Assembly: GCA_026396425.1 (NCBI GenBank)
Contig: JAPLWU010000068.1
Location: 1 to 29,735 of the forward strand
Reading direction: 5' to 3'
Length of the DNA stretch: 29,735 bases
Source of the DNA: Candidatus Micrarchaeota archaeon
Lineage (GTDB): Archaea; Micrarchaeota; Micrarchaeia; Burarchaeales; JAKAKT01
Under the pieces are notes generated by a model that saw nothing but the letters and a program-made list of their open reading frames with translations, had not been told where the DNA came from and did not search any database. The translations under genes were made by a program, and so were the position numbers. This document shows positions 1 through 10,787 of the stretch, one piece after another. Positions within the stretch are counted from its first letter, which is position 1. Each line of letters begins with the position of its first letter.

Positions 1-126
1 ACGCAGGACGAGAAGGTGAAGCGCGACCTCGGAACGATGAGGGCATGCCCCAACTCGGCGTGCGGCAAGATGATAGCGGCCGGCCTCTCGACCTGCCCGC
101 ACTGCAACAGGAGCGTAGGTGCTTGA
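1..126 (+). CDS. 3' end of a gene entering from the left edge; C-terminal zinc-ribbon (CPNSAC...CPHC)
   Basis: Frame +1 is open from base 1: TQDEKVKRDLGTMRACPNSACGKMIAAGLSTCPHCNRSVGA*, stop TGA 124-126, immediately before ATG 128. Not in the ORF track because it has no start in the window. Confidence 0.75.
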   Translation, partial: TQDEKVKRDLGTMRACPNSACGKMIAAGLSTCPHCNRSVGA

Positions 127-127
127 T

Positions 128-3100
128 ATGGAACCAAAAACAATCGTGCTGCTCGTGCTGGCGGTTTCGCTTTTCGGCTGCCTTCTCGCGCCAACCGCAT
201 CCGTGCCATACCGCGTGGTTTCGAACACCTCCGGCGACGACAGGTGCCTCCAGGAGGGCGGGGCTTGCCTTTGCATGATGTGCAAAAAGGGCGGTATCGA
301 ACTGCTTTTCGGTATTAAGATTCACGAAACAAACCTCTATAAGGGAAAATGCTGGTTCGGCGGAAAAGATACCTACGACCCCGACAACCCGCTGCTGCCC
401 GATGGCGTTTGCAGCAAGGAGATGATTGACGAAATAATGGATTACGACCCCGACAACCCGTCCAGCGCGCCGTGGGACAGCGACCCGTACATACGGTATT
501 TCATGTACGGCTTCGGCCCGACTTTCGGCGACTTCGAGGCCGCGAACCAGTACTGCGCCAACAACCTCACAATCATTATGGCTATCCTCAAGAGGACCGA
601 CGGAAAGGCGCCAAACCCCCCGCCTCCAGAGGTAACCAAGTGCTACCTGACGGCAGGGGTCATCCCCGTCTACGTCTACTACACGCAGGGACTGCAGACG
701 ACGCCGATTGCCATGACCAACTTCATACGCAGAATGCAGGGAATGCCCACGACGTATGAGGACCCGGGCTTTTTGCCCGATGAAGCCGATGAACTGGGGC
801 CGGTCATTGTCACACCGGAATTCAGGTATAATGACCAGCTCCCAGCCGCAGTTGACGCGGTGAAGGGCCAGCTCGATGCCATATTCCTCGACTGCAAGAA
901 ATGCATGGTCGCCCTTGCCCCAAGAAAATACGGCACCGTGCAGGAGGACATAAAGGCGGTGGATGCGGTGCTTCTTGACAGCAACGGCCTGCTCAACGGC
1001 TACGAGAGGAAGGTCCACATAATCGGGCAGGAGATGCTCTTCAGCCCCGAGAAGGACTGCGACTTCTACAAGCAGTTCAACGATGGCCTCAACTTCTCGC
1101 TCGAAATGCTGAAGAAGTACGACAAGCCCGTGCTGTGGCTTTCGTTCGGGATAGCCGACACGGAACGCTCGGACGGGACGTGCGAGTGGACGAGGAAGGA
1201 AGTGGCCGACTATTACGAATACGTTTTCATGAACACGCCCGCGATGGTGGCCTCGGGCATAATCGGCGTTGTGCAGGCAGGAATAATGGACGATGGCAGC
1301 GCGGGCACTTCTCAATCCGTTTGCCCGAATGGCAGGTGCGAACAAGGCGAAACCAATCTTGGATGCCCGCAGGACTGCACAATCGCTACCTGCGGGAACA
1401 CGGTCTGCGACTTGGCCTTGGGAGAAACGACTTCCAACTGCCCGACCGACTGCTCGGTCCGGGTCTGCTCCGAATCAAGCAGCGAGAGCTGCGGCTACGG
1501 GCTGATGGAAACCTCGGAGGAGAAGAAGCAGCCGGTTTTCGACGCCTGGTTCAGCGCATGCCGCTTTTACTACGGCAGGAGCTCGTTCGTCGAGGAGGGG
1601 CCATTCCCATCTGACTGCGGGAATGGCAAGTGCGAGCTAGGGGAAACTTCAGCCTGTTCCGGTTGCTTTGCAACCTGCGGGAACGGCGCCTGCGATTCGG
1701 CTTCTGGAGAAACGAATTCGAACTGCCCGACCGACTGCCCGCCCCAGCTCTTCAACGTGGTTCCAGCCATATTCTCAGTTGATGCCGACCCGACGGACAA
1801 CATCCCGAACGAGGTCAACCCGAACAAGGCGTATTGCAATTACGCAATGAACCTGGGCGTCTACGGGCTCTACGACACGAGCACGCGCTCGGCAGAGCGC
1901 CAGTTGGAAGCCATTCCCAAATGCTACTACTGCGACGAGTGCCTCGGCCCGCTCACCGCCCAGCGGCTCCTTGCTTACCCGGACCTCAACAAAATCAACG
2001 ATGCCCTCCTGCCTTTCAGGCAAAACATAAACGACGAGCATCCGACCGGCCCGGGCAACCCGACCGGGATTGAGCCCGAATACTGCACGCACCTGGAGAT
2101 AACCATGGTCTCGCAGGCCGCCTCGAAGTGCAACGTCGACCCGATGATTCTCAGGGCCATGGCATGGAACAACACGTGGGAGGAGCTCATGCTCAATCCG
2201 CCAGGATACTGGGCCGAAGATGTTTTCAACTGCTACGAGAACTTCACCGCCTATTACACTACAATTGCGGATACGACTTGCAACCCTGACGACCTGACGC
2301 TGGTGACCAACCCCGCTTACCAGCCGAAAACCGAACCGGGTTATCCCACGCCAGTTTTTACCGACTTATGCATCAATCCTGCTCCTGCTTACATACCGAG
2401 CCTCCCGCCCGCGCAGGGATTGAAGCCGTGCGAGTTCGGCCTCATCTCCTCCTCATATCTCCCCTACGACCAGGTGAGCGCGCAACTCCCGTACACGAGC
2501 CAATACGCGGGGCAGGAACCCCTCCTGTGCGGGCCCGACTTCAACCCGCTCTCTGCAAGCGGGAGCATATGCCTCGCCTCCGCGCGCCTCTGCTCCTACC
2601 TCAGCGGCTATAACGCCACCCCGGAGTTCGGGGATTTCAGGGGCACGGGAGTCCGCGCTGCAGGTTATGAAAACGAGCTGACCGCGTTGAAATGGCTCTC
2701 GGACCCGGCGGCCCCTGACCCGAACGGCAGGACGCGCGCGCAGAACCTCGGCGCCCTCCTTCCCGATGGCGTCACCCTCGAACCGCAATACGCGACCGCC
2801 AAGTGGGCGCTCGCCTTTGTTTCCCTGGCCCAATACGAACTCGGAACCGACGGGCTCACCCAGCTCTACAACCGCTGGGCTTCGACGCTGGGATGCAGGG
2901 ACCCGGAAATCCTAGGGGAGATAAACGGGCTAGGCGCCGGCTCCTACTGCCGCTGGTTAAAGGGAATACAGTCGTACGATACCTTGGCTAATTGTCTGGC
3001 GGCTCCTCCGGGACTCGGGTCTTGCACGATAAATTGCTGTAATGCGTTGGGAGCACAGAACCCGTCGCTCAACCTCCAACGCTGCTGGGATAATCCGGAT

Positions 3101-3421
3101 TGCTGCACTAGTAATGCATGTAATCCCAATAATCTAGTCCCGCCCGCGGGAACCTGCTGCAGCCATGTGCTTCCTGCTCCTGCCGCTTGTAAGGTTGGCC
3201 CATTGTTCTACGACCCCCTCATCTGCCCCGGAACCGCCTGCGGAACCAACAAATGTTGCGGCAACCCCAACTTCTACGACTTCGCTTGCAACTGCAGGTC
3301 CGACCAGAACGACGACGGCCTGCCCGACCCGCCGCCCCTCGCCTGCGACGTTCTCGCCAGGTATCTTTACCTGATAGAGAACTGCAATACGCTGTGCTAC
3401 CAGTACAACCAGGGAGCGTAA
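128..3421 (+). CDS. Large Cys-rich secreted protein / putative lipoprotein (~1097 aa) with GH-A-like barrel motifs, CGNGxC...GET..NCPxDC repeats and SLT-like motifs
   Basis: ORF 119..3421, ATG at 128. N-terminal hydrophobic signal KTIVLLVLAVSLFGC ending in a lipobox-like LFGC. Four Cys-rich repeats at 1318-1460 and 1615-1740. DxNxDG-type motif DQNDDGLP near the C-terminus. Confidence 0.85.
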   Translation: MEPKTIVLLVLAVSLFGCLLAPTASVPYRVVSNTSGDDRCLQEGGACLCMMCKKGGIELLFGIKIHETNLYKGKCWFGGKDTYDPDNPLLPDGVCSKEMIDEIMDYDPDNPSSAPWDSDPYIRYFMYGFGPTFGDFEAANQYCANNLTIIMAILKRTDGKAPNPPPPEVTKCYLTAGVIPVYVYYTQGLQTTPIAMTNFIRRMQGMPTTYEDPGFLPDEADELGPVIVTPEFRYNDQLPAAVDAVKGQLDAIFLDCKKCMVALAPRKYGTVQEDIKAVDAVLLDSNGLLNGYERKVHIIGQEMLFSPEKDCDFYKQFNDGLNFSLEMLKKYDKPVLWLSFGIADTERSDGTCEWTRKEVADYYEYVFMNTPAMVASGIIGVVQAGIMDDGSAGTSQSVCPNGRCEQGETNLGCPQDCTIATCGNTVCDLALGETTSNCPTDCSVRVCSESSSESCGYGLMETSEEKKQPVFDAWFSACRFYYGRSSFVEEGPFPSDCGNGKCELGETSACSGCFATCGNGACDSASGETNSNCPTDCPPQLFNVVPAIFSVDADPTDNIPNEVNPNKAYCNYAMNLGVYGLYDTSTRSAERQLEAIPKCYYCDECLGPLTAQRLLAYPDLNKINDALLPFRQNINDEHPTGPGNPTGIEPEYCTHLEITMVSQAASKCNVDPMILRAMAWNNTWEELMLNPPGYWAEDVFNCYENFTAYYTTIADTTCNPDDLTLVTNPAYQPKTEPGYPTPVFTDLCINPAPAYIPSLPPAQGLKPCEFGLISSSYLPYDQVSAQLPYTSQYAGQEPLLCGPDFNPLSASGSICLASARLCSYLSGYNATPEFGDFRGTGVRAAGYENELTALKWLSDPAAPDPNGRTRAQNLGALLPDGVTLEPQYATAKWALAFVSLAQYELGTDGLTQLYNRWASTLGCRDPEILGEINGLGAGSYCRWLKGIQSYDTLANCLAAPPGLGSCTINCCNALGAQNPSLNLQRCWDNPDCCTSNACNPNNLVPPAGTCCSHVLPAPAACKVGPLFYDPLICPGTACGTNKCCGNPNFYDFACNCRSDQNDDGLPDPPPLACDVLARYLYLIENCNTLCYQYNQGA

Positions 3422-4816: not shown

Positions 4817-6091
4817 CTACATCTGCTTCTTCGTGATTTCCAGAATGACGCCAGCCGCCACAGTCTGGCCCATGTCCCTCACCGCGAACCTCCCGAGCTG
4901 CGGGAATTCCGAGAACTTCTCGGCCACTATGGCTTTGAGCGGCCTTATCTTCATGATTGCCACGTCGCCCGTCTTGACAAAGTCGGGGTTCTTCTGCTGC
5001 GTCTGGCCGGTCTTGGGGTCCTTCTTCTCGAGAATCTCCTCGATCCTGCAGGCCACCTGGGTAGTGTGTATGTGGAATACCGGCGTGTAGCCCTTGGCGA
5101 TTGCGGTCGGGTGCTCGAGCACAACGACCTGAGCCGTGAAGTCCTGCACAACAGTTGGCGGGTTCGAGGCGGTCCCAACGACCTCGCCTCTCCTCACGTC
5201 CTTCTTGTCGACGCCCTTCACGTTGAAGCCGACGTTATCGCCAGGCCCTGCCTGCGTGAGGGGCTGGTGGTGCATCTCGATGCTTTTCACCTCGCCCTTC
5301 GCTCCCGATGGCATGAAGACGACGTTGTCGCCGACCTTCATAATCCCGGTTTCAATCCTTCCAACCGGCACCGTTCCGTGTCCGGTGATTGTAAAAACGT
5401 CCTGTATGGGCATCCTGAGCGGCTTGTCAATCGGCTTCGGAGGCACCTTGAACATGTCGAGCACCTCAACAAGGCACGGGCCCGTGTACCACGGGGTCTT
5501 GTCCGGTGTCTTCTTCGAGACGTTCGCGCCGTCGTATGCCGAAGTGGGCACGAAGTGTATGTCGGCGACCTTGTAGCCGATGTTCTTGAGCAGCGTCGTG
5601 AGCTGCGCCTTCAAATCGTCGTATTTCACGCGGTCGTACTTGACCTCGTCCATCTTGTTGATTGCAATGGCTATCTGCTGTATGCCGAGCACCTTCGCGA
5701 GGAAGGCGTGCTCCTTTGTCTGGGGCTGGATGCCGTCCTTGCACGACACGACGATCACTGCGGCATCGGCCTGGCTCGCCCCGGTAATCATGTTCTTGAT
5801 GAAGTCCCTGTGACCCGGCGCGTCGATGATGGTGAAGTAGTACTTCGGGCTCTGGAAGTCCCTGTGCGCAACGTCAATGGTGACCCCCCTCTCCCTCTCC
5901 TCCTTCAACTCGTCCATGACGAAGGCGAACTCGAAAGTCGGCTTGCCGACCTTTTCCGCCTCCTCCTTCAGCTTCCTGAGCTGCTGCTCGCTGATTGCCC
6001 CTGTCTCGTACAGGATTCTCCCGACCATGGTGCTCTTACCGTGGTCGACGTGACCGATGAAGACCAGATTCATATGTTCTTTTGCAGCCAT
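4817..6091 (-). CDS. tuf: Translation elongation factor aEF-1alpha
   Basis: [40 protein letters not shown]. Shine-Dalgarno GGAGGTG at 6097-6103 supports ATG 6091. Confidence 0.99.
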
Positions 6092-6141
6092 AAGCACACC
6101 TCCACTATCGTTACCACATATGTTCAAGATGCACCCGCAGA

Positions 6142-6149
6142 ATTATAAA
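6142..6149 (-). promoter_or_regulatory. TATA box upstream of tuf
   Basis: TTTATAAT on the minus strand ~50 nt upstream of the tuf start. Confidence 0.5.
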
Positions 6150-6384
6150 CCATTCTTCCATTCGCGGAACCTTAAACAGGCACATCTATTTGCCTCAGCA
6201 TTCTTTTAAACCTATCGTCAATATGCGAGGTGGAAAAACCGAACACGAGATGAAAAAATAAAACAATTGGGAAAAATAAACTCGAGTTAAAAAAATAAAA
6301 AAAACAAAACTCGAACTTTCGTCTCGAATCGCGCGTTTTTTCGGGATTTTCGCCTCGAACTGCGCAGTTTTCTCGGTTCATAAC

Positions 6385-6660
6385 CTACCATCTTATCCCG
6401 AATTCCTTGAATTCGCCCGTCGCATTCCCCCACGTCTCCTCAATCCGTTGGACATTCGCGGCAGGCGAGCCCACCGAGCACCACATGAGGAGAGTCTGCA
6501 ATTTCTCCCTCTCGCCCTCGGCCATTATCTCCACGGTCCCCTCGGGCGCGTTCCTCACCCAGCCGACCAATCCGAGCGAGCGGGCTTTCTCCATGGCGTG
6601 CGCCCTGAAGAAAACGCCCTGAACCCGGCCATGAACAACGATGCGAAGGCGCTCTGCCAT
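6385..6660 (-). CDS. acyP: Acylphosphatase
   Basis: Signature VHGRVQGVFFR and GWVRN..EGTVE. Start at ATG 6660. Confidence 0.95.
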   Translation of the reverse strand: MAERLRIVVHGRVQGVFFRAHAMEKARSLGLVGWVRNAPEGTVEIMAEGEREKLQTLLMWCSVGSPAANVQRIEETWGNATGEFKEFGIRW

Positions 6661-6816
6661 TCCCAAACCCCGCTCGCGGACCCCTGCCCCAACCACAAAA
6701 ACGAAGGGCTCGCTCGCCGTTCGCCAACACGTGCCTCGGACCCGTGCCCGAACCCGAAAACACGAATGAGCAGTCCGCTCTGCCCTTCTGCCTCGCTAAT
6801 GATTAGGGCTTTTAAT

Positions 6817-8082
6817 TTAAACTATTTTGGTTCGGTGCGAATATTGCTTCCCCAAGCTCCACTTCGCAGGCGAGAGCCGCAGCTCCTCGTGCGTTTTCGC
6901 GTATTTGTCGAGCGGAATCCCCCTCACGGCCGCCTCGACCGCCTGAAGGAGCGCGGTTGCCCCGGCCCTCGTTCCGTTCGGATGGCCGTGCACCCCGCCG
7001 CCGGCCTGTATGACGATGTCATTTCCGAAAATTCTCACCAAATCAGGAACGTTTTCAGGCGCGAGCCCCCCGCTGCATACGGAGAAGACGGGCTTAAGCC
7101 CGGCCCACTTCCCGTTAATGGTTTTGTGAATCCCCAAAACCTCCCCTCTTCCGCCCTCCATCTTTCCCACGACCGCGCCGATGTGGAGCTGGTCGACGCC
7201 GGCCATTCGCGCAAGCTTCGCGAGCGGTAGCATGGCGATTCCGTGCCTTTTATTTCTTGCGAATGCGGCATACATGGCCCTGTGCCCGTGAATTACCATG
7301 CCCAGCTTCTGGTTGCGTATGAACTGGAGGCCCGAGAAGCCGGCCGTTATTATGTCGACCATTATGCAGTTTCCGCCGTGCGCCTTCACGAACTCGGCCC
7401 GCCCGAGCATTACCTCACTGCTCGCGGTTATGTTTGCCGCGTACATTTTTTTCTTCCCGGTCTCGCTCTCCGCCTTTTCCTTCGCCTCGAGAACCCGCGC
7501 AATCCGTTCCTCAAACTTACAAAAGGTTTGGCTCGTGAGGTTCTCATCGTCTTTGACGAAGTCGATTCCGCCGGCCCACGCGTCGTAGGCGACTTTCGCG
7601 GTCTCCTTCGGGTTGAGGCCGACCTTCGGCTTCACAATCGTCCCGATGTGCGGCCTCCTGTTTTTCGAAGTCCCCATGATTCGCCTGACTCCTTCCATCC
7701 CGAATTCCGGTCCTTTGAAGCTTCGGGCATATTTGTCAGGAATTTCGAAATCCAGCAGCCTCAGATTATCGACTCCCTTCATCCCGAATATGTTCCCCGC
7801 TATGTCGGAAAGAATCTGCGGAACGTTCCCGTCCTCGAAAAGCTCGACCGGGTAGGCGATTTTCATCACCGCCCCGCCTCCTTCCTTCCTTATGCTGAAA
7901 ACCCTTGCCGCGAGATTTCGCATCACGCGCTCCTTCATCGTCGAGATTTTCGTCCACGTTCCGACAGAACTTTCGGCGGCAATCTCGTTCGCGGCTTTCT
8001 TCAGGTCCTTCGATTCCACGTAGACGGTCGTTACGACGTCGCCATTCTTTTCCGGCTTGTAACGCAAATCAACAAAATCCAT
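6817..8082 (-). CDS. rbcL: Ribulose-1,5-bisphosphate carboxylase, archaeal form III(-like)
   Basis: AAESSVGTW, GNIFGMK, GTIVKPKVGL, DFVKDDENL (carbamylated Lys motif), HGHRAM, QLHIG..VGKMEG, SGG, QAGGGVHGHP. All canonical active-site positions are recognisable. Confidence 0.95.
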   Translation of the reverse strand: MDFVDLRYKPEKNGDVVTTVYVESKDLKKAANEIAAESSVGTWTKISTMKERVMRNLAARVFSIRKEGGGAVMKIAYPVELFEDGNVPQILSDIAGNIFGMKGVDNLRLLDFEIPDKYARSFKGPEFGMEGVRRIMGTSKNRRPHIGTIVKPKVGLNPKETAKVAYDAWAGGIDFVKDDENLTSQTFCKFEERIARVLEAKEKAESETGKKKMYAANITASSEVMLGRAEFVKAHGGNCIMVDIITAGFSGLQFIRNQKLGMVIHGHRAMYAAFARNKRHGIAMLPLAKLARMAGVDQLHIGAVVGKMEGGRGEVLGIHKTINGKWAGLKPVFSVCSGGLAPENVPDLVRIFGNDIVIQAGGGVHGHPNGTRAGATALLQAVEAAVRGIPLDKYAKTHEELRLSPAKWSLGKQYSHRTKIV

Positions 8083-8126
8083 CTAACCACCTTCGCTTAC
8101 ACCAACCAAACAATTGCCGCAATATG

Positions 8127-8134
8127 TTTATAAT
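8127..8134. promoter_or_regulatory. TATA-like box in divergent rbcL / membrane-gene spacer
   Basis: TTTATAAT within the 72-nt spacer between two divergent genes. Confidence 0.45.
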
Positions 8135-8154
8135 CTGTCGAGTGAAACTTTAAC

Positions 8155-8982
8155 TTGGTGGTCGTAGTCCCGATGGTCCTGCTGTTCGGTTCCCTTTTCC
8201 TGATGCTTTCCTCGCCCGGCCTCGGCCTCGCCTCTTTTGTTTTTTTGATTCTCGCGATATTCCTGCTAATGCTCGTCCTCTCGTATTTCTCCCTCGGCAT
8301 ATACCCCGTCGCCCTCAGGCGCAGGGGCCTTAAGACGATTCCCTGGGGAGTCGGCGCTTTCGCCCGCATTATAGTCGGGGGGATAGCGGTTTTCCTGGCC
8401 GCGATTTTCGGCCTCATGGACAGGAAATTGTTCGCGGCCTCTGTCCTGCTCCTCGCGGGCCTGCTGCTCACGGTTGCCGCAATGTACTTCGGCTTCGCCG
8501 GTTCCGCAGGGGCCGGGGGAAAGCTCGTTTACGGCCTCGCTGGCATCGCGTTCATAGCCCTTCTTGCGGTTATTTACGCAGTACTGGTCGCGTACAGCTC
8601 AGTCAGACTCGTGCTGTGGCCCTACCGGTTCGTTTCCAGGGGCGAGCCAATAATCGAAGGGATAAAAAACACGTGGAAGATGACCGAGGGGAAGGCCGCG
8701 AGGATATTCGTCGCCAATTTTGGGATAATGCTCGCCATCGCCTTCGCTTCTTTCGTCCTCATGATACCCATATTCATCCTGCGGGTTGTCGAAACAATCG
8801 CGCTGGCCCTCGTCCTGGGTTTCCCGTTTCCGGTCGTTTCGATGATACTGCAGCTCGCGGTCAGCACGCTGATGACTTTCCCGATGATTTACGCGCTTTC
8901 CGCGCTCTATTCGAGAATAAGCGCCGATAAGGCCATGATAAGCACTGAGAAGGCTCTCAGGATAAGCACTGAAAAGGCCTAG
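8155..8982 (+). CDS. Polytopic membrane protein of unknown function
   Basis: About 6 hydrophobic segments and an amphipathic 'IIEGIKNTWKMTEGK' segment typical of uncharacterised multi-pass proteins. Start uncertain (TTG 8155, GTG 8158 or ATG 8173). Confidence 0.75.
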   Translation: MVVVVPMVLLFGSLFLMLSSPGLGLASFVFLILAIFLLMLVLSYFSLGIYPVALRRRGLKTIPWGVGAFARIIVGGIAVFLAAIFGLMDRKLFAASVLLLAGLLLTVAAMYFGFAGSAGAGGKLVYGLAGIAFIALLAVIYAVLVAYSSVRLVLWPYRFVSRGEPIIEGIKNTWKMTEGKAARIFVANFGIMLAIAFASFVLMIPIFILRVVETIALALVLGFPFPVVSMILQLAVSTLMTFPMIYALSALYSRISADKAMISTEKALRISTEKA

Positions 8983-9893: not shown

Positions 9894-10787
9894 ATGGTCA
9901 AAAAAATGATTGGTACTACAAGGCTCAAGGAGGGCTTCGCCAAGATGCAGAAGGGCGGGGTCATAATGGACGTCGTGAATCCGCAGCAGGCGAAGCTGGC
10001 CGAGAAGGCCGGCGCTGTTGCAGTAATGTCGCTGCACCGCGTGCCTGCGGACATAAGGGCGGAGGGAGGAATCGCGAGAATGGCCGACCCGCTGGTTACC
10101 GGGAAGATAATGGAAGCCGTAACTATTCCGGTGATGGCAAAGTGCAGGATTGGGCATTTCGCCGAGGCGCAGGTGCTCGAGGCCCTCGGGGTGGACATGG
10201 TCGACGAGAGCGAGGTCCTGACCCCAGCCGACGAGGAAAACCACATTGACAAGAAAAAATTCACCGTCCCGTTCGTTTGCGGCGCAAGGAATTTGGGCGA
10301 GGCCCTGAGACGCATACACGAGGGCGCGGCAATGATTCGAACGAAGGGCGAGCCCGGCACGGGCAACGTCGTCGAGGCGGTCAGGCACATGAACGTGATG
10401 AATTCCGAAATAAGGGATTTGGCGCGGAACAAGCACAACAACACTTTCCTCGAAAGGAAGGCGCACGAATACCGCGTGCCGCTCCAGCTCGTGCAAAAAA
10501 CCGCGGAGATGGGCCGCCTGCCGGTCGTTAATTTCGCGGCTGGGGGGATAGCGACTCCTGCCGACGCCGCGCTCATGATGCAGCTTGGCGCCGACGGCAT
10601 TTTCGTCGGCTCAGGCATATTCAAGGCGGGCAACCCCGAGAAATTCGCCCGCGCAATCGTCGAGGCCACGCGCAACTACGACAAGCCGGAAATCCTCCTC
10701 AGGGTTTCGAAGGGGCTCGGCGAGCCCATGAAAGGCACGCTCCTGGAAAGCGACCGCGAGAAGATGCAGCTGCGCGGCACGGGCTGA
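9894..10787 (+). CDS. pdxS: Pyridoxal 5'-phosphate synthase lyase subunit
   Basis: [71 protein letters not shown]. Confidence 0.98.

What the first reader, a model, noticed from the sequence alone, without database searches (positions are those of the whole stretch)
128..3421. Giant Cys-rich lipoprotein carrying apparently catalytically altered glycoside-hydrolase-like and lytic-transglycosylase-like modules
Seen in the sequence: after the lipobox comes a series resembling a clan GH-A (beta/alpha)8 barrel: PVIVTPEFRYN (acid/base-like Glu), KPVLWLSFG at 1124-1150, and GYGL...KKQPVFDAW. The usual nucleophile motif is KPxxxxEFG, and here it has Ser in place of Glu. Two Cys repeats are inserted inside the barrel. 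Further on, four motifs appear in SLT/lysozyme-like order: QAASKCNVDPMILRAMAWNN (~2110-2172, lacking the catalytic ES), EFGLI (~2430), DFNPLSASGSICLASARL (~2535-2590) and LAQYELG (~2825-2845, compare AYNAG). Established: SLT domains need that Glu and GH-A enzymes need two Glu. Inference: a glycan-binding or attachment protein, or an unusual wall-lysing one, that a small-genome archaeon could use on a host surface.
Basis: partly seen in the sequence, partly recalled or inferred. Interest (0 to 1): 0.75.

Follow-up and report, generated by a model that had tools for sequence, protein, structure and literature searches.

The report
Degenerate archaeal cell-wall hydrolase-like surface protein
A tiny symbiotic archaeon (Micrarchaeota) encodes a 1097-residue secreted, cysteine-rich protein built from a sugar-cleaving-type barrel and a bacterial-wall-cutting (lytic transglycosylase) domain. 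Its relatives keep the key catalytic residues, but this copy has lost most of them, so it probably binds a cell surface rather than cuts it.

Summary
Window 128-3421(+) is one intact 1097-aa ORF with a signal peptide ending in a lipobox Cys, 67 cysteines, and every quoted motif at the stated coordinates.

- **N-terminal module:** AlphaFold2 with a 98-sequence family alignment folds residues ~120-485 as an eight-stranded beta/alpha barrel. All top 50 structural matches are clan GH-A hydrolases (Z 17-20).
- **C-terminal module:** The C-half's best structural matches are lytic transglycosylases (Z 8-9).
- **Relatives:** Canonical relatives in Candidatus Micrarchaeota pass Pfam SLT, and some carry a C-terminal M23 peptidase.
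- **SLT residues:** At the SLT catalytic column, 85/98 members have Glu. This protein has Asn-Thr, and the GLMQ Gln is Ser.
- **Barrel residues:** The family's invariant Glu after strand 4 (E231) is kept. The supposed nucleophile position is Tyr in the family, never Glu. This copy has lost that Tyr plus W153, D297 and Y384.
- **Inserts:** The two Cys-rich inserts are 77-79% DNA duplicates of each other.

The most likely reading is a surface-anchored, largely non-catalytic glycan-binding descendant of a wall-hydrolase family. This scan met the intact form of the family before on other DNA (e1-1238701). SLT and M23 proteins in DPANN are already published. The degenerate lineage and the unannotated barrel are the modest novelty.

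The parts
1..126 (+). 3' end (41 codons plus TGA) of an upstream same-strand ORF cut by the contig start. It ends in CPNSAC...CPHC. Its stop lies one base before ATG 128.
   Evidence: Relatives of the same taxonomic family have a giant 1603-1717 aa signal-peptide ORF with no Pfam match directly upstream of their homologue. Orthology of the 41-aa fragment could not be tested.
128..3421 (+). Whole gene: 1097 codons plus stop (alternative GTG start at 119).
128..181 (+). Signal peptide ending in the lipobox-like LFGC (Cys18).
   Evidence: Read directly from the sequence. G17 and C18 are >=90% conserved in 98 members. A weak DUF6726 hit covers aa 4-32.
245..487 (+). N-terminal Cys-bearing cap (aa 40-120) with family-conserved C47, C52 and C75 (CxCMxC ... 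LYxGxCxF).
488..1282 (+). Strands 1-8 of the GH-A-like (beta/alpha)8 barrel (aa 121-385). E231 (nt 818-820) follows strand 4. S339 (nt 1142-1144) lies on strand 7, where the family has Tyr.
   Evidence: AF2 model pLDDT >90 over this stretch. VIA Z 17-20 to GH26/39/10/2/53. Foldseek E 1e-8. Column statistics.
1298..1492 (+). Insert 1: two ~20-aa four-Cys modules (CxNGxC..GET..CPxDC) between strand 8 and helix 8.
   Evidence: Absent in P0002. Low pLDDT. DNA repeat 1315-1466 versus 1609-1751 at 77-79%. The same module recurs in many other proteins.
1493..1582 (+). Conserved GYGL...KKQPVFDAWFSACRFYY segment, which forms barrel helix 8.
   Evidence: Helix at model 441-453, i.e. aa 470-482. W474, C478 and Y481 are conserved.
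1610..1747 (+). Insert 2: a duplicate of insert 1, placed after helix 8.
1763..2107 (+). Linker region (aa 546-660) with conserved C570, CxxC (C602, C605) and C653.
   Evidence: Modelled with low confidence.
2108..2932 (+). SLT/GH23-like domain (aa 661-935). Motif I is WNNT (N682-T683, nt 2171-2176) instead of xES. Motif II is GLIS (nt 2438-2449) instead of GLMQ. Motif III is QYELG (Y903, G906) instead of AYNxG.
   Evidence: An HMM built without the query hits it at E 1.3e-17. Column counts. VIA top hits are MltF/Slt70/MltC/MltE at Z 8-9. DNA read.
2933..3262 (+). C-terminal Cys-rich stretch within aa 936-1045; the whole C-terminal region aa 936-1097 carries 21 Cys. It is mostly low-confidence loops.
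3263..3418 (+). Conserved C-terminal helices (Y1079, C1086, C1090) that structural alignments place in the lysozyme-like fold.
   Evidence: model range reaches residue ~518 of 523.

Best explanation
The gene encodes a Sec-exported, probably lipid-anchored, disulfide-rich surface protein of a Micrarchaeota (DPANN) archaeon. It belongs to a phylum-wide family whose canonical members join three parts:
1. a sequence-orphan clan-GH-A-like TIM barrel with one invariant Glu after strand 4 and Tyr on strands 7 and 8;
2. a bacterial-type SLT/GH23 lytic transglycosylase domain (ES, GLMQ, AYNxG);
3. in some members, an M23 peptidase.

That architecture is a peptidoglycan-attacking toolkit. In this lineage it has been disarmed:
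- The M23 domain is absent.
- The SLT Glu-Ser became Asn-Thr and the GLMQ Gln became Ser.
- The barrel lost four of its conserved cleft residues (W153I, D297H, Y339S, Y384A) but kept E231 and D274.
- The fold-determining Gly, Cys and Tyr residues are kept, and a duplicated pair of small four-Cys modules was added.

The protein therefore most likely works as a non-lytic, or at most weakly lytic, glycan-binding or adhesion module held on the archaeal surface for contact with another cell's wall.

Shown: the domain folds, the homology, the residue states and the family distribution. Inferred: export and lipidation, loss of activity, the binding role and the target.
For: - **Intact ORF:**
- **Barrel fold:** AF2 model pTM 0.83 with eight beta/alpha units. 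All 50 best VIA hits are clan GH-A, Z 17-20. Foldseek and AFDB agree.
- **SLT homology:** 16/57 relatives hit Pfam SLT and 4 hit M23. P0022 and P0029 are above the gathering cut-offs. The family profile hits MltC motif I. The query matches an HMM built without it at E 1.3e-17, with WNNT opposite wqES. VIA top hits are MltF, Slt70, MltC and MltE.
- **Residue states:** catalytic column E 85/98, S 80/98, Q 81/98, against query N, T, S. Barrel columns.
- **Not a decaying gene:** root-to-tip length is 1.82 against a median of 1.85. The query groups with P0002 as sister to a clade that carries Asp-Ser.
- **No other wall hydrolase found:** no PF01464, PF01551, PF01510, PF00877 or PF01183 match in the 87%-complete genome.
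- **Taxon names:**
- **Literature:** PMC8204110, PMC5864196, PMC9723730, PMC8561730.
Against: - No activity or binding data exist for any member of the family.
- E231, the family's best catalytic candidate, is retained.
- A query-specific insertion puts Glu685 and Glu686 one helical turn after the lost Glu. These could in principle substitute for it.
- The C-half model is mediocre (pLDDT 62.5) and Foldseek alone found nothing significant.
- The substrate of the barrel is unknown. The known hosts of cultivated Micrarchaeota are wall-less archaea, so peptidoglycan may not be the target.
Confidence: 0.6

Rival explanations
1. It is still an active wall or glycan hydrolase. The barrel would work through the retained E231 (single-acid, substrate-assisted or lytic chemistry), and/or the SLT module would use the nearby Glu685/Glu686 as a migrated catalytic acid.
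For: E231 and D274 are kept, and E231 is E in 93/98 members. The predicted helix 672-688 carries both N682 and E685/E686. The sister clade conserves Asp-Ser, which suggests selection on that site.
Against: Four other conserved cleft residues of the barrel are lost. Ser683 and Gln774 of the SLT motifs are lost too. The WEEL insertion is unique to this sequence (96-97 of 98 have a gap).
Confidence: 0.2
2. It is an enzyme or binder retargeted to a non-murein glycan, such as an archaeal host's S-layer glycans or exopolysaccharide. On this reading the residue changes reflect new specificity rather than loss of function.
For: The barrel is a sequence orphan with no Pfam family. The cleft residues changed together in the query/P0002 clade. 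Lineage-specific Cys modules were gained.
Against: No positive evidence exists for any alternative substrate. The replaced residues are mostly aromatic to small (W to I, Y to S, Y to A), which usually weakens sugar stacking rather than redirecting it.
Confidence: 0.13
3. It is a gene under relaxed selection on its way to becoming a pseudogene, with no remaining function.
For: Catalytic and conserved residues are lost in both modules. The M23 domain is lost.
Against: A 3.3-kb frame stays open in a ~1.2-Mb reduced genome. The Cys pattern and fold-determining residues are conserved. The branch length is average. The N-half is 55% identical to P0002.
Confidence: 0.07

Closest known systems
Family-1 lytic transglycosylases (Pfam SLT PF01464, CAZy GH23): E. 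coli Slt70, MltC, MltE; P. aeruginosa MltF
   Same: Lysozyme-like fold by structural search (Z 8-9). The motifs appear in the same order. Canonical relatives pass the Pfam SLT threshold, and the family profile aligns to MltC motif I.
   Different: The query has Asn-Thr for the catalytic Glu-Ser, GLIS for GLMQ and QYELG for AYNxG. It gets no Pfam hit itself. The domain is interrupted by long Cys-rich loops.
Clan GH-A (4/7 superfamily) glycoside hydrolases: GH26 lichenase/mannanase, GH5, GH10, GH53, GH2 catalytic domains
   Same: Predicted (beta/alpha)8 barrel, Z 17-20 over 245-290 residues. A conserved Glu directly follows strand 4, the position of the GH-A acid/base.
   Different: There is no carboxylate on strand 7: Tyr in the family, Ser here. 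There is no Asn before the strand-4 Glu. No sequence similarity to any Pfam GH family was found. Six barrel Cys residues and an N-terminal Cys cap are present.
[quoted passage not shown] 2021, PMC8204110; Chen et al. 2018, PMC5864196; Vigneron et al. 2022, PMC9723730; Vazquez-Campos et al. 2021, PMC8561730)
   Same: A secreted, large, SLT-bearing (plus or minus M23) protein of a small-genome archaeon, proposed to act on bacterial walls. Named relatives are from Ca. Micrarchaeota, Ca. Gugararchaeum and Ca. Burarchaeum.
   Different: Those reports concern apparently intact enzymes, and the passages I read do not describe the N-terminal barrel. This copy lacks the catalytic residues and the M23 domain.
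Catalytically dead glycosidase-fold binders such as chitinase-like lectins (GH18 fold) and Klotho (GH1 fold). This comparison is from general knowledge, not tested here.
   Same: A hydrolase fold is kept while catalytic residues are replaced, and the inferred role shifts to binding.
   Different: The folds and families differ, and no binding has been shown here.

Membership tests
SLT / GH23 lytic transglycosylase (PF01464) | Match to the family HMM above the gathering score | tested here: not met
   The query has no SLT hit even at E<=10. Relatives P0022 (32.9 bits) and P0029 (35.6 bits) exceed the 21.3-bit cut-off.
SLT / GH23 lytic transglycosylase (PF01464) | Catalytic Glu-Ser of motif I | tested here: not met
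   The query has N682-T683. The column is E in 85/98 members and the next column is S in 80/98.
SLT / GH23 lytic transglycosylase (PF01464) | GLMQ and AYNxG motifs | tested here: inconclusive
   G771, L772, Y903 and G906 are kept. Gln774 is Ser, and the Asn of AYN is Glu.
SLT / GH23 lytic transglycosylase (PF01464) | Lysozyme-like alpha-helical fold | tested here: met
   The ten best VIA hits are lytic transglycosylases, a wall-targeting T6SS effector (Tse3) and g-type lysozyme, Z 7.2-9.2. The model has moderate confidence, pLDDT 62.5.
Clan GH-A glycoside hydrolases | (beta/alpha)8 barrel | tested here: met
   Eight strand-helix units with pLDDT >90. All top 50 PDB matches are GH-A.
Clan GH-A glycoside hydrolases | Acid/base Glu at the C-terminal end of strand 4 | tested here: met
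   E231 lies two residues after strand 226-229 and is E in 93/98 members. The equivalence rests on strand order, not on a residue-level superposition.
Clan GH-A glycoside hydrolases | Nucleophile Glu at the C-terminal end of strand 7 | tested here: not met
   On strand 335-342, position 339 is Ser here and Tyr in 76/98 members. No column between 333 and 345 is acidic in >=60% of members.
Peptidase M23 (PF01551) | C-terminal M23 domain with HxxxD ... HxH | tested here: not met
   Absent from the query. Present in P0022, P0029 and other relatives. None was found in the own genome.
Prokaryotic lipoprotein | Signal peptide ending in a lipobox with an invariant Cys | tested here: met
   The N-terminus reads MEPK / TIVLLVLAVSLF / GC. 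G17 and C18 are >=90% conserved in the family. SignalP/LipoP were not available, and lipidation is not testable here.

The most novel reading that the evidence does not exclude
The N-terminal barrel would define a new glycoside-hydrolase-like family, with a GH-A fold, one Glu on strand 4 and Tyr instead of a nucleophile Glu. That arrangement would suggest substrate-assisted or lytic chemistry on N-acetylated wall glycans, and the family would be specific to Micrarchaeota wall-attack proteins. Within one taxonomic family, this three-enzyme lysin would then have been converted step by step (Glu to Asp to Asn, M23 lost, cleft aromatics lost, Cys modules gained) into a non-catalytic adhesin used for host attachment.
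Probability: 0.3. Interest if true: 0.65.

Novelty: new variant of a known kind. Interest (0 to 1): 0.45.

Why it matters
How DPANN archaea recognise and hold on to partner cells is largely unknown. Their secreted SLT and M23 proteins are the main genomic argument that some of them attack bacteria. This locus adds three points:
- The Micrarchaeota version of that protein carries an unannotated GH-A-like barrel as its most conserved part.
- One lineage has lost the catalytic residues of both glycan-active modules while keeping the fold. Counting SLT genes therefore overstates lytic capacity.
- The family offers a natural series from enzyme to probable binder that could be tested biochemically.

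Tried and rejected
- **Sequence searches on the query alone:** Pfam, NCBIfam and PDB sequence searches gave nothing useful. The word-indexed homologue search found only two proteins.
- **Barrel versus Pfam:** scanning the barrel of ten members at E<=10 gave no GH family.
- **Barrel profile versus PDB sequences:** nothing.
- **Foldseek on the C-half:** not significant. Only the exhaustive VIA search showed the lysozyme-like fold.
- **The search for related loci:** failed with alignments and found nothing with the single protein.
- **ESM Atlas feature search:** gave only weak GH26 leads.
- **Rejected, Ser339 as a lost nucleophile Glu:** the family has Tyr there.
- **Rejected, a pseudogene:** the frame is open, the branch length is average and the Cys scaffold is conserved.
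- **Rejected, a mobile-element or viral lysin:** the gene sits beside S10 and EF-1alpha, and the family is clade-structured across the phylum. However, the closest homologue P0002 does lie 1.1 kb from an integrase.
- **Not possible, residue-level superposition on a GH-A structure:** model coordinates are not exposed to scripts.
Full report
**Observation**

Window 119/128..3421 (+) is a single open frame of 1097 codons from ATG 128. It contains 67 cysteines. The N-terminus (MEPK, then a hydrophobic run, then LFGC) has the form of a signal peptide ending in a lipobox. Gly17 and Cys18 are at least 90% conserved across 98 family members. On its own, the query matches no Pfam or NCBIfam family and no PDB sequence.

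**Family**

A word-indexed search found only one close homologue, P0002 (42% identity, 751 aa). P0002 lacks both Cys-rich inserts.

An exhaustive HMMER search found 274 representative clusters, about 100 of them at E<=1e-10. Most are 700-1000 aa long and align over residues ~118-390.

Whole-genome searches gave the following:
- The protein occurs in 21 of 29 genera sampled around the window's genome.
- The N-domain profile occurs in 78 of 201 genomes of the phylum, or 41 of 102 genera. Presence is strongly clade-structured.

Named members come from Candidatus Micrarchaeota, including Ca. Gugararchaeum and Ca. Burarchaeum. There they are annotated only as "Peptidase family M23" or hypothetical.

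**C-terminal module**

In alignments of full-length members, most relatives carry textbook lytic-transglycosylase motifs...DPLxxRAxxxxES-F..., CAxGLMQ, FNPFN, AxxxYxG.

- Sixteen of 57 members hit Pfam SLT and four hit Peptidase_M23.
- P0022 and P0029 exceed both curated thresholds.
- The family profile aligns its ES motif to the catalytic ES of MltC.
- An HMM of this region, built without the query and P0002, recovers the query at E 1.3e-17. It places WNNT opposite wqES.

Column counts:

| Column | Family (of 98) | Query |
|---|---|---|
| Catalytic residue | Glu 85, Asp 6, Asn 3 | Asn682 |
| Next residue | Ser 80 | Thr683 |
| Gln of GLMQ | Gln 81 | Ser774 |

Gly771, Tyr903 and Gly906 are kept. 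The DNA reads GCA TGG AAC AAC ACG TGG GAG GAG.

The AlphaFold2 model of residues 575-1097 is only moderate (pLDDT 62.5), and Foldseek found nothing significant. The exhaustive VIA search ranked MltF, a "lytic transglycosylase in action" entry, MltC, Slt70, Tse3, MltE, Slt, g-type lysozyme, Cj0843c and MltD as the top ten, at Z 7.2-9.2. Homology and fold therefore agree: this is an SLT/GH23-type domain that has lost its catalytic dyad.

A query-specific insertion (WEEL) puts Glu685 and Glu686 one helical turn downstream. I record this as a possible, unproven rescue of the lost acid.

**N-terminal module**

With the 98-sequence alignment, AlphaFold2 gives pTM 0.83 and pLDDT above 90 for residues ~120-385. 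Eight strand-helix units are regularly spaced.

- Foldseek's best PDB hits are GH2, GH5 and GH53 enzymes, at E down to 1e-8.
- All 50 best VIA hits are clan GH-A families (GH26, 39, 10, 2, 53, 1, 51, 72, 79, 5, 158), at Z 16.6-19.7.
- AFDB and ESM Atlas searches agree.
- No Pfam family matches this domain in any of ten members, even at E<=10.

Glu231 lies two residues after strand 4, the position of the GH-A acid/base. It is Glu in 93/98 members.

No column near strand 7 is acidic. The family as a whole is therefore a one-carboxylate barrel, not a degraded two-Glu GH-A enzyme.

Conserved aromatic and polar residues cluster at the C-terminal ends of the strands: W153, Y185, E231, Y339, W354, E356, Y384. 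That is the usual catalytic face of a TIM barrel. This placement is inferred from the predicted secondary structure.

The canonical state WEDDYY | ESGQYG holds in about 70 of 98 members. This protein reads IEDHSA | NTGSYG.

**Inserts**

Insert 1 (aa ~391-455) lies between strand 8 and helix 8. Insert 2 (aa ~495-540) lies after helix 8. Each consists of two ~20-residue four-Cys modules of the type CGNGxC..GET..CPxDC.

Nucleotides 1315-1466 and 1609-1751 are 77-79% identical, so the two inserts arose by duplication. The same module occurs, often many times, in unrelated large proteins.

**Evolution**

In a FastTree of the 98 members, the query and P0002 form a clade with support 1.0. That clade is sister (support 0.997) to the four relatives that carry Asp-Ser. 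The next relatives out include Glu-Ser proteins with M23 domains. The simplest order of events is loss of M23 and Glu to Asp at the base of this taxonomic family, then Asp to Asn or Lys.

The query's root-to-tip distance is 1.82, against a median of 1.85. This argues against free decay.

The own genome is 87% complete. It shows no PF01464, PF01551, PF01510, PF00877 or PF01183 match. This degenerate protein is therefore the only recognisable trace of a wall-lytic kit in the genome.

**Context**

Downstream lie a methyltransferase, ribosomal protein S10, EF-1alpha and a form III-type RuBisCO, which is chromosomal housekeeping DNA.

Upstream, window 1-126 holds the last 41 codons of a same-strand ORF cut by the contig start. 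In relatives of the same taxonomic family, the gene directly upstream is a 1603-1717 aa protein with a signal peptide and no Pfam match. An earlier report of this scan on another genome (e1-1238701) described the same pairing and the same two-module build, but with an apparently intact SLT domain. My independent results agree with it.

**Literature**

Secreted lytic murein transglycosylases have been noted in three Micrarchaeota genomes (PMC5864196). An extracellular M23B peptidase was reported in a related archaeon (PMC8561730). Large extracellular murein-like transglycosylase proteins in Pacearchaeota and Woesearchaeota were proposed to bind or degrade bacterial walls (PMC8204110, PMC9723730). 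The passages I read mention neither the N-terminal barrel nor degenerate members.

**Verdict**

The protein is best described as a catalytically disarmed member of a known kind of DPANN wall-targeting surface protein. The most likely mechanism is glycan binding or adhesion rather than lysis (confidence about 0.6). Residual or retargeted activity through Glu231, or through Glu685/686, is the main rival. Novelty is moderate: a new variant of a known kind.

Noticed in passing
window 1-126 (+); L033:1687-6498; L034:7356-12509: The contig begins inside a same-strand ORF that stops one base before the gene's ATG. In same-family relatives, the gene directly upstream is a 1603-1717 aa protein with a signal peptide and no Pfam match, so this may be a conserved partner. 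A 474-aa homologue of its C-terminal part lies on own-genome contig C140 (L025:13-1437, minus strand).
   Followed up: partly
L031:838-2394 (G000:C91) and L029:2-664 (G000:C15): A second, divergent paralogue of the barrel domain exists in the same genome. It appears to be split across two contig ends, has a long Cys-rich insertion and carries no SLT part. On C15 it is followed by a very Cys-rich ORF of at least 482 aa (L029:726-2171).
   Followed up: partly
L032:3668-4870 and 6001-8256: The closest homologue, P0002, is not syntenic with the window. A phage-type integrase lies 1.1 kb upstream of it, so that copy may sit on an integrated element.
   Followed up: no
window 1315-1466 and 1609-1751: The two Cys-module cassettes are 77-79% identical at the DNA level. 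The same ~20-aa CGNGxC..GET..CPxDC module recurs up to 13 times in unrelated large proteins of public metagenomes and has no Pfam model.
   Followed up: partly
relatives G036:C1, G188:C4, G033:C1, G015:C62: Several relatives also have 1100-3200 aa proteins with partial matches to the barrel profile. The barrel may therefore be reused in giant surface proteins.
   Followed up: no
window 6817-8082 (-), 9894-10787 (+): A form III-type RuBisCO large subunit and PdxS lie near the gene. Both are ordinary for DPANN nucleotide-salvage metabolism.
   Followed up: no
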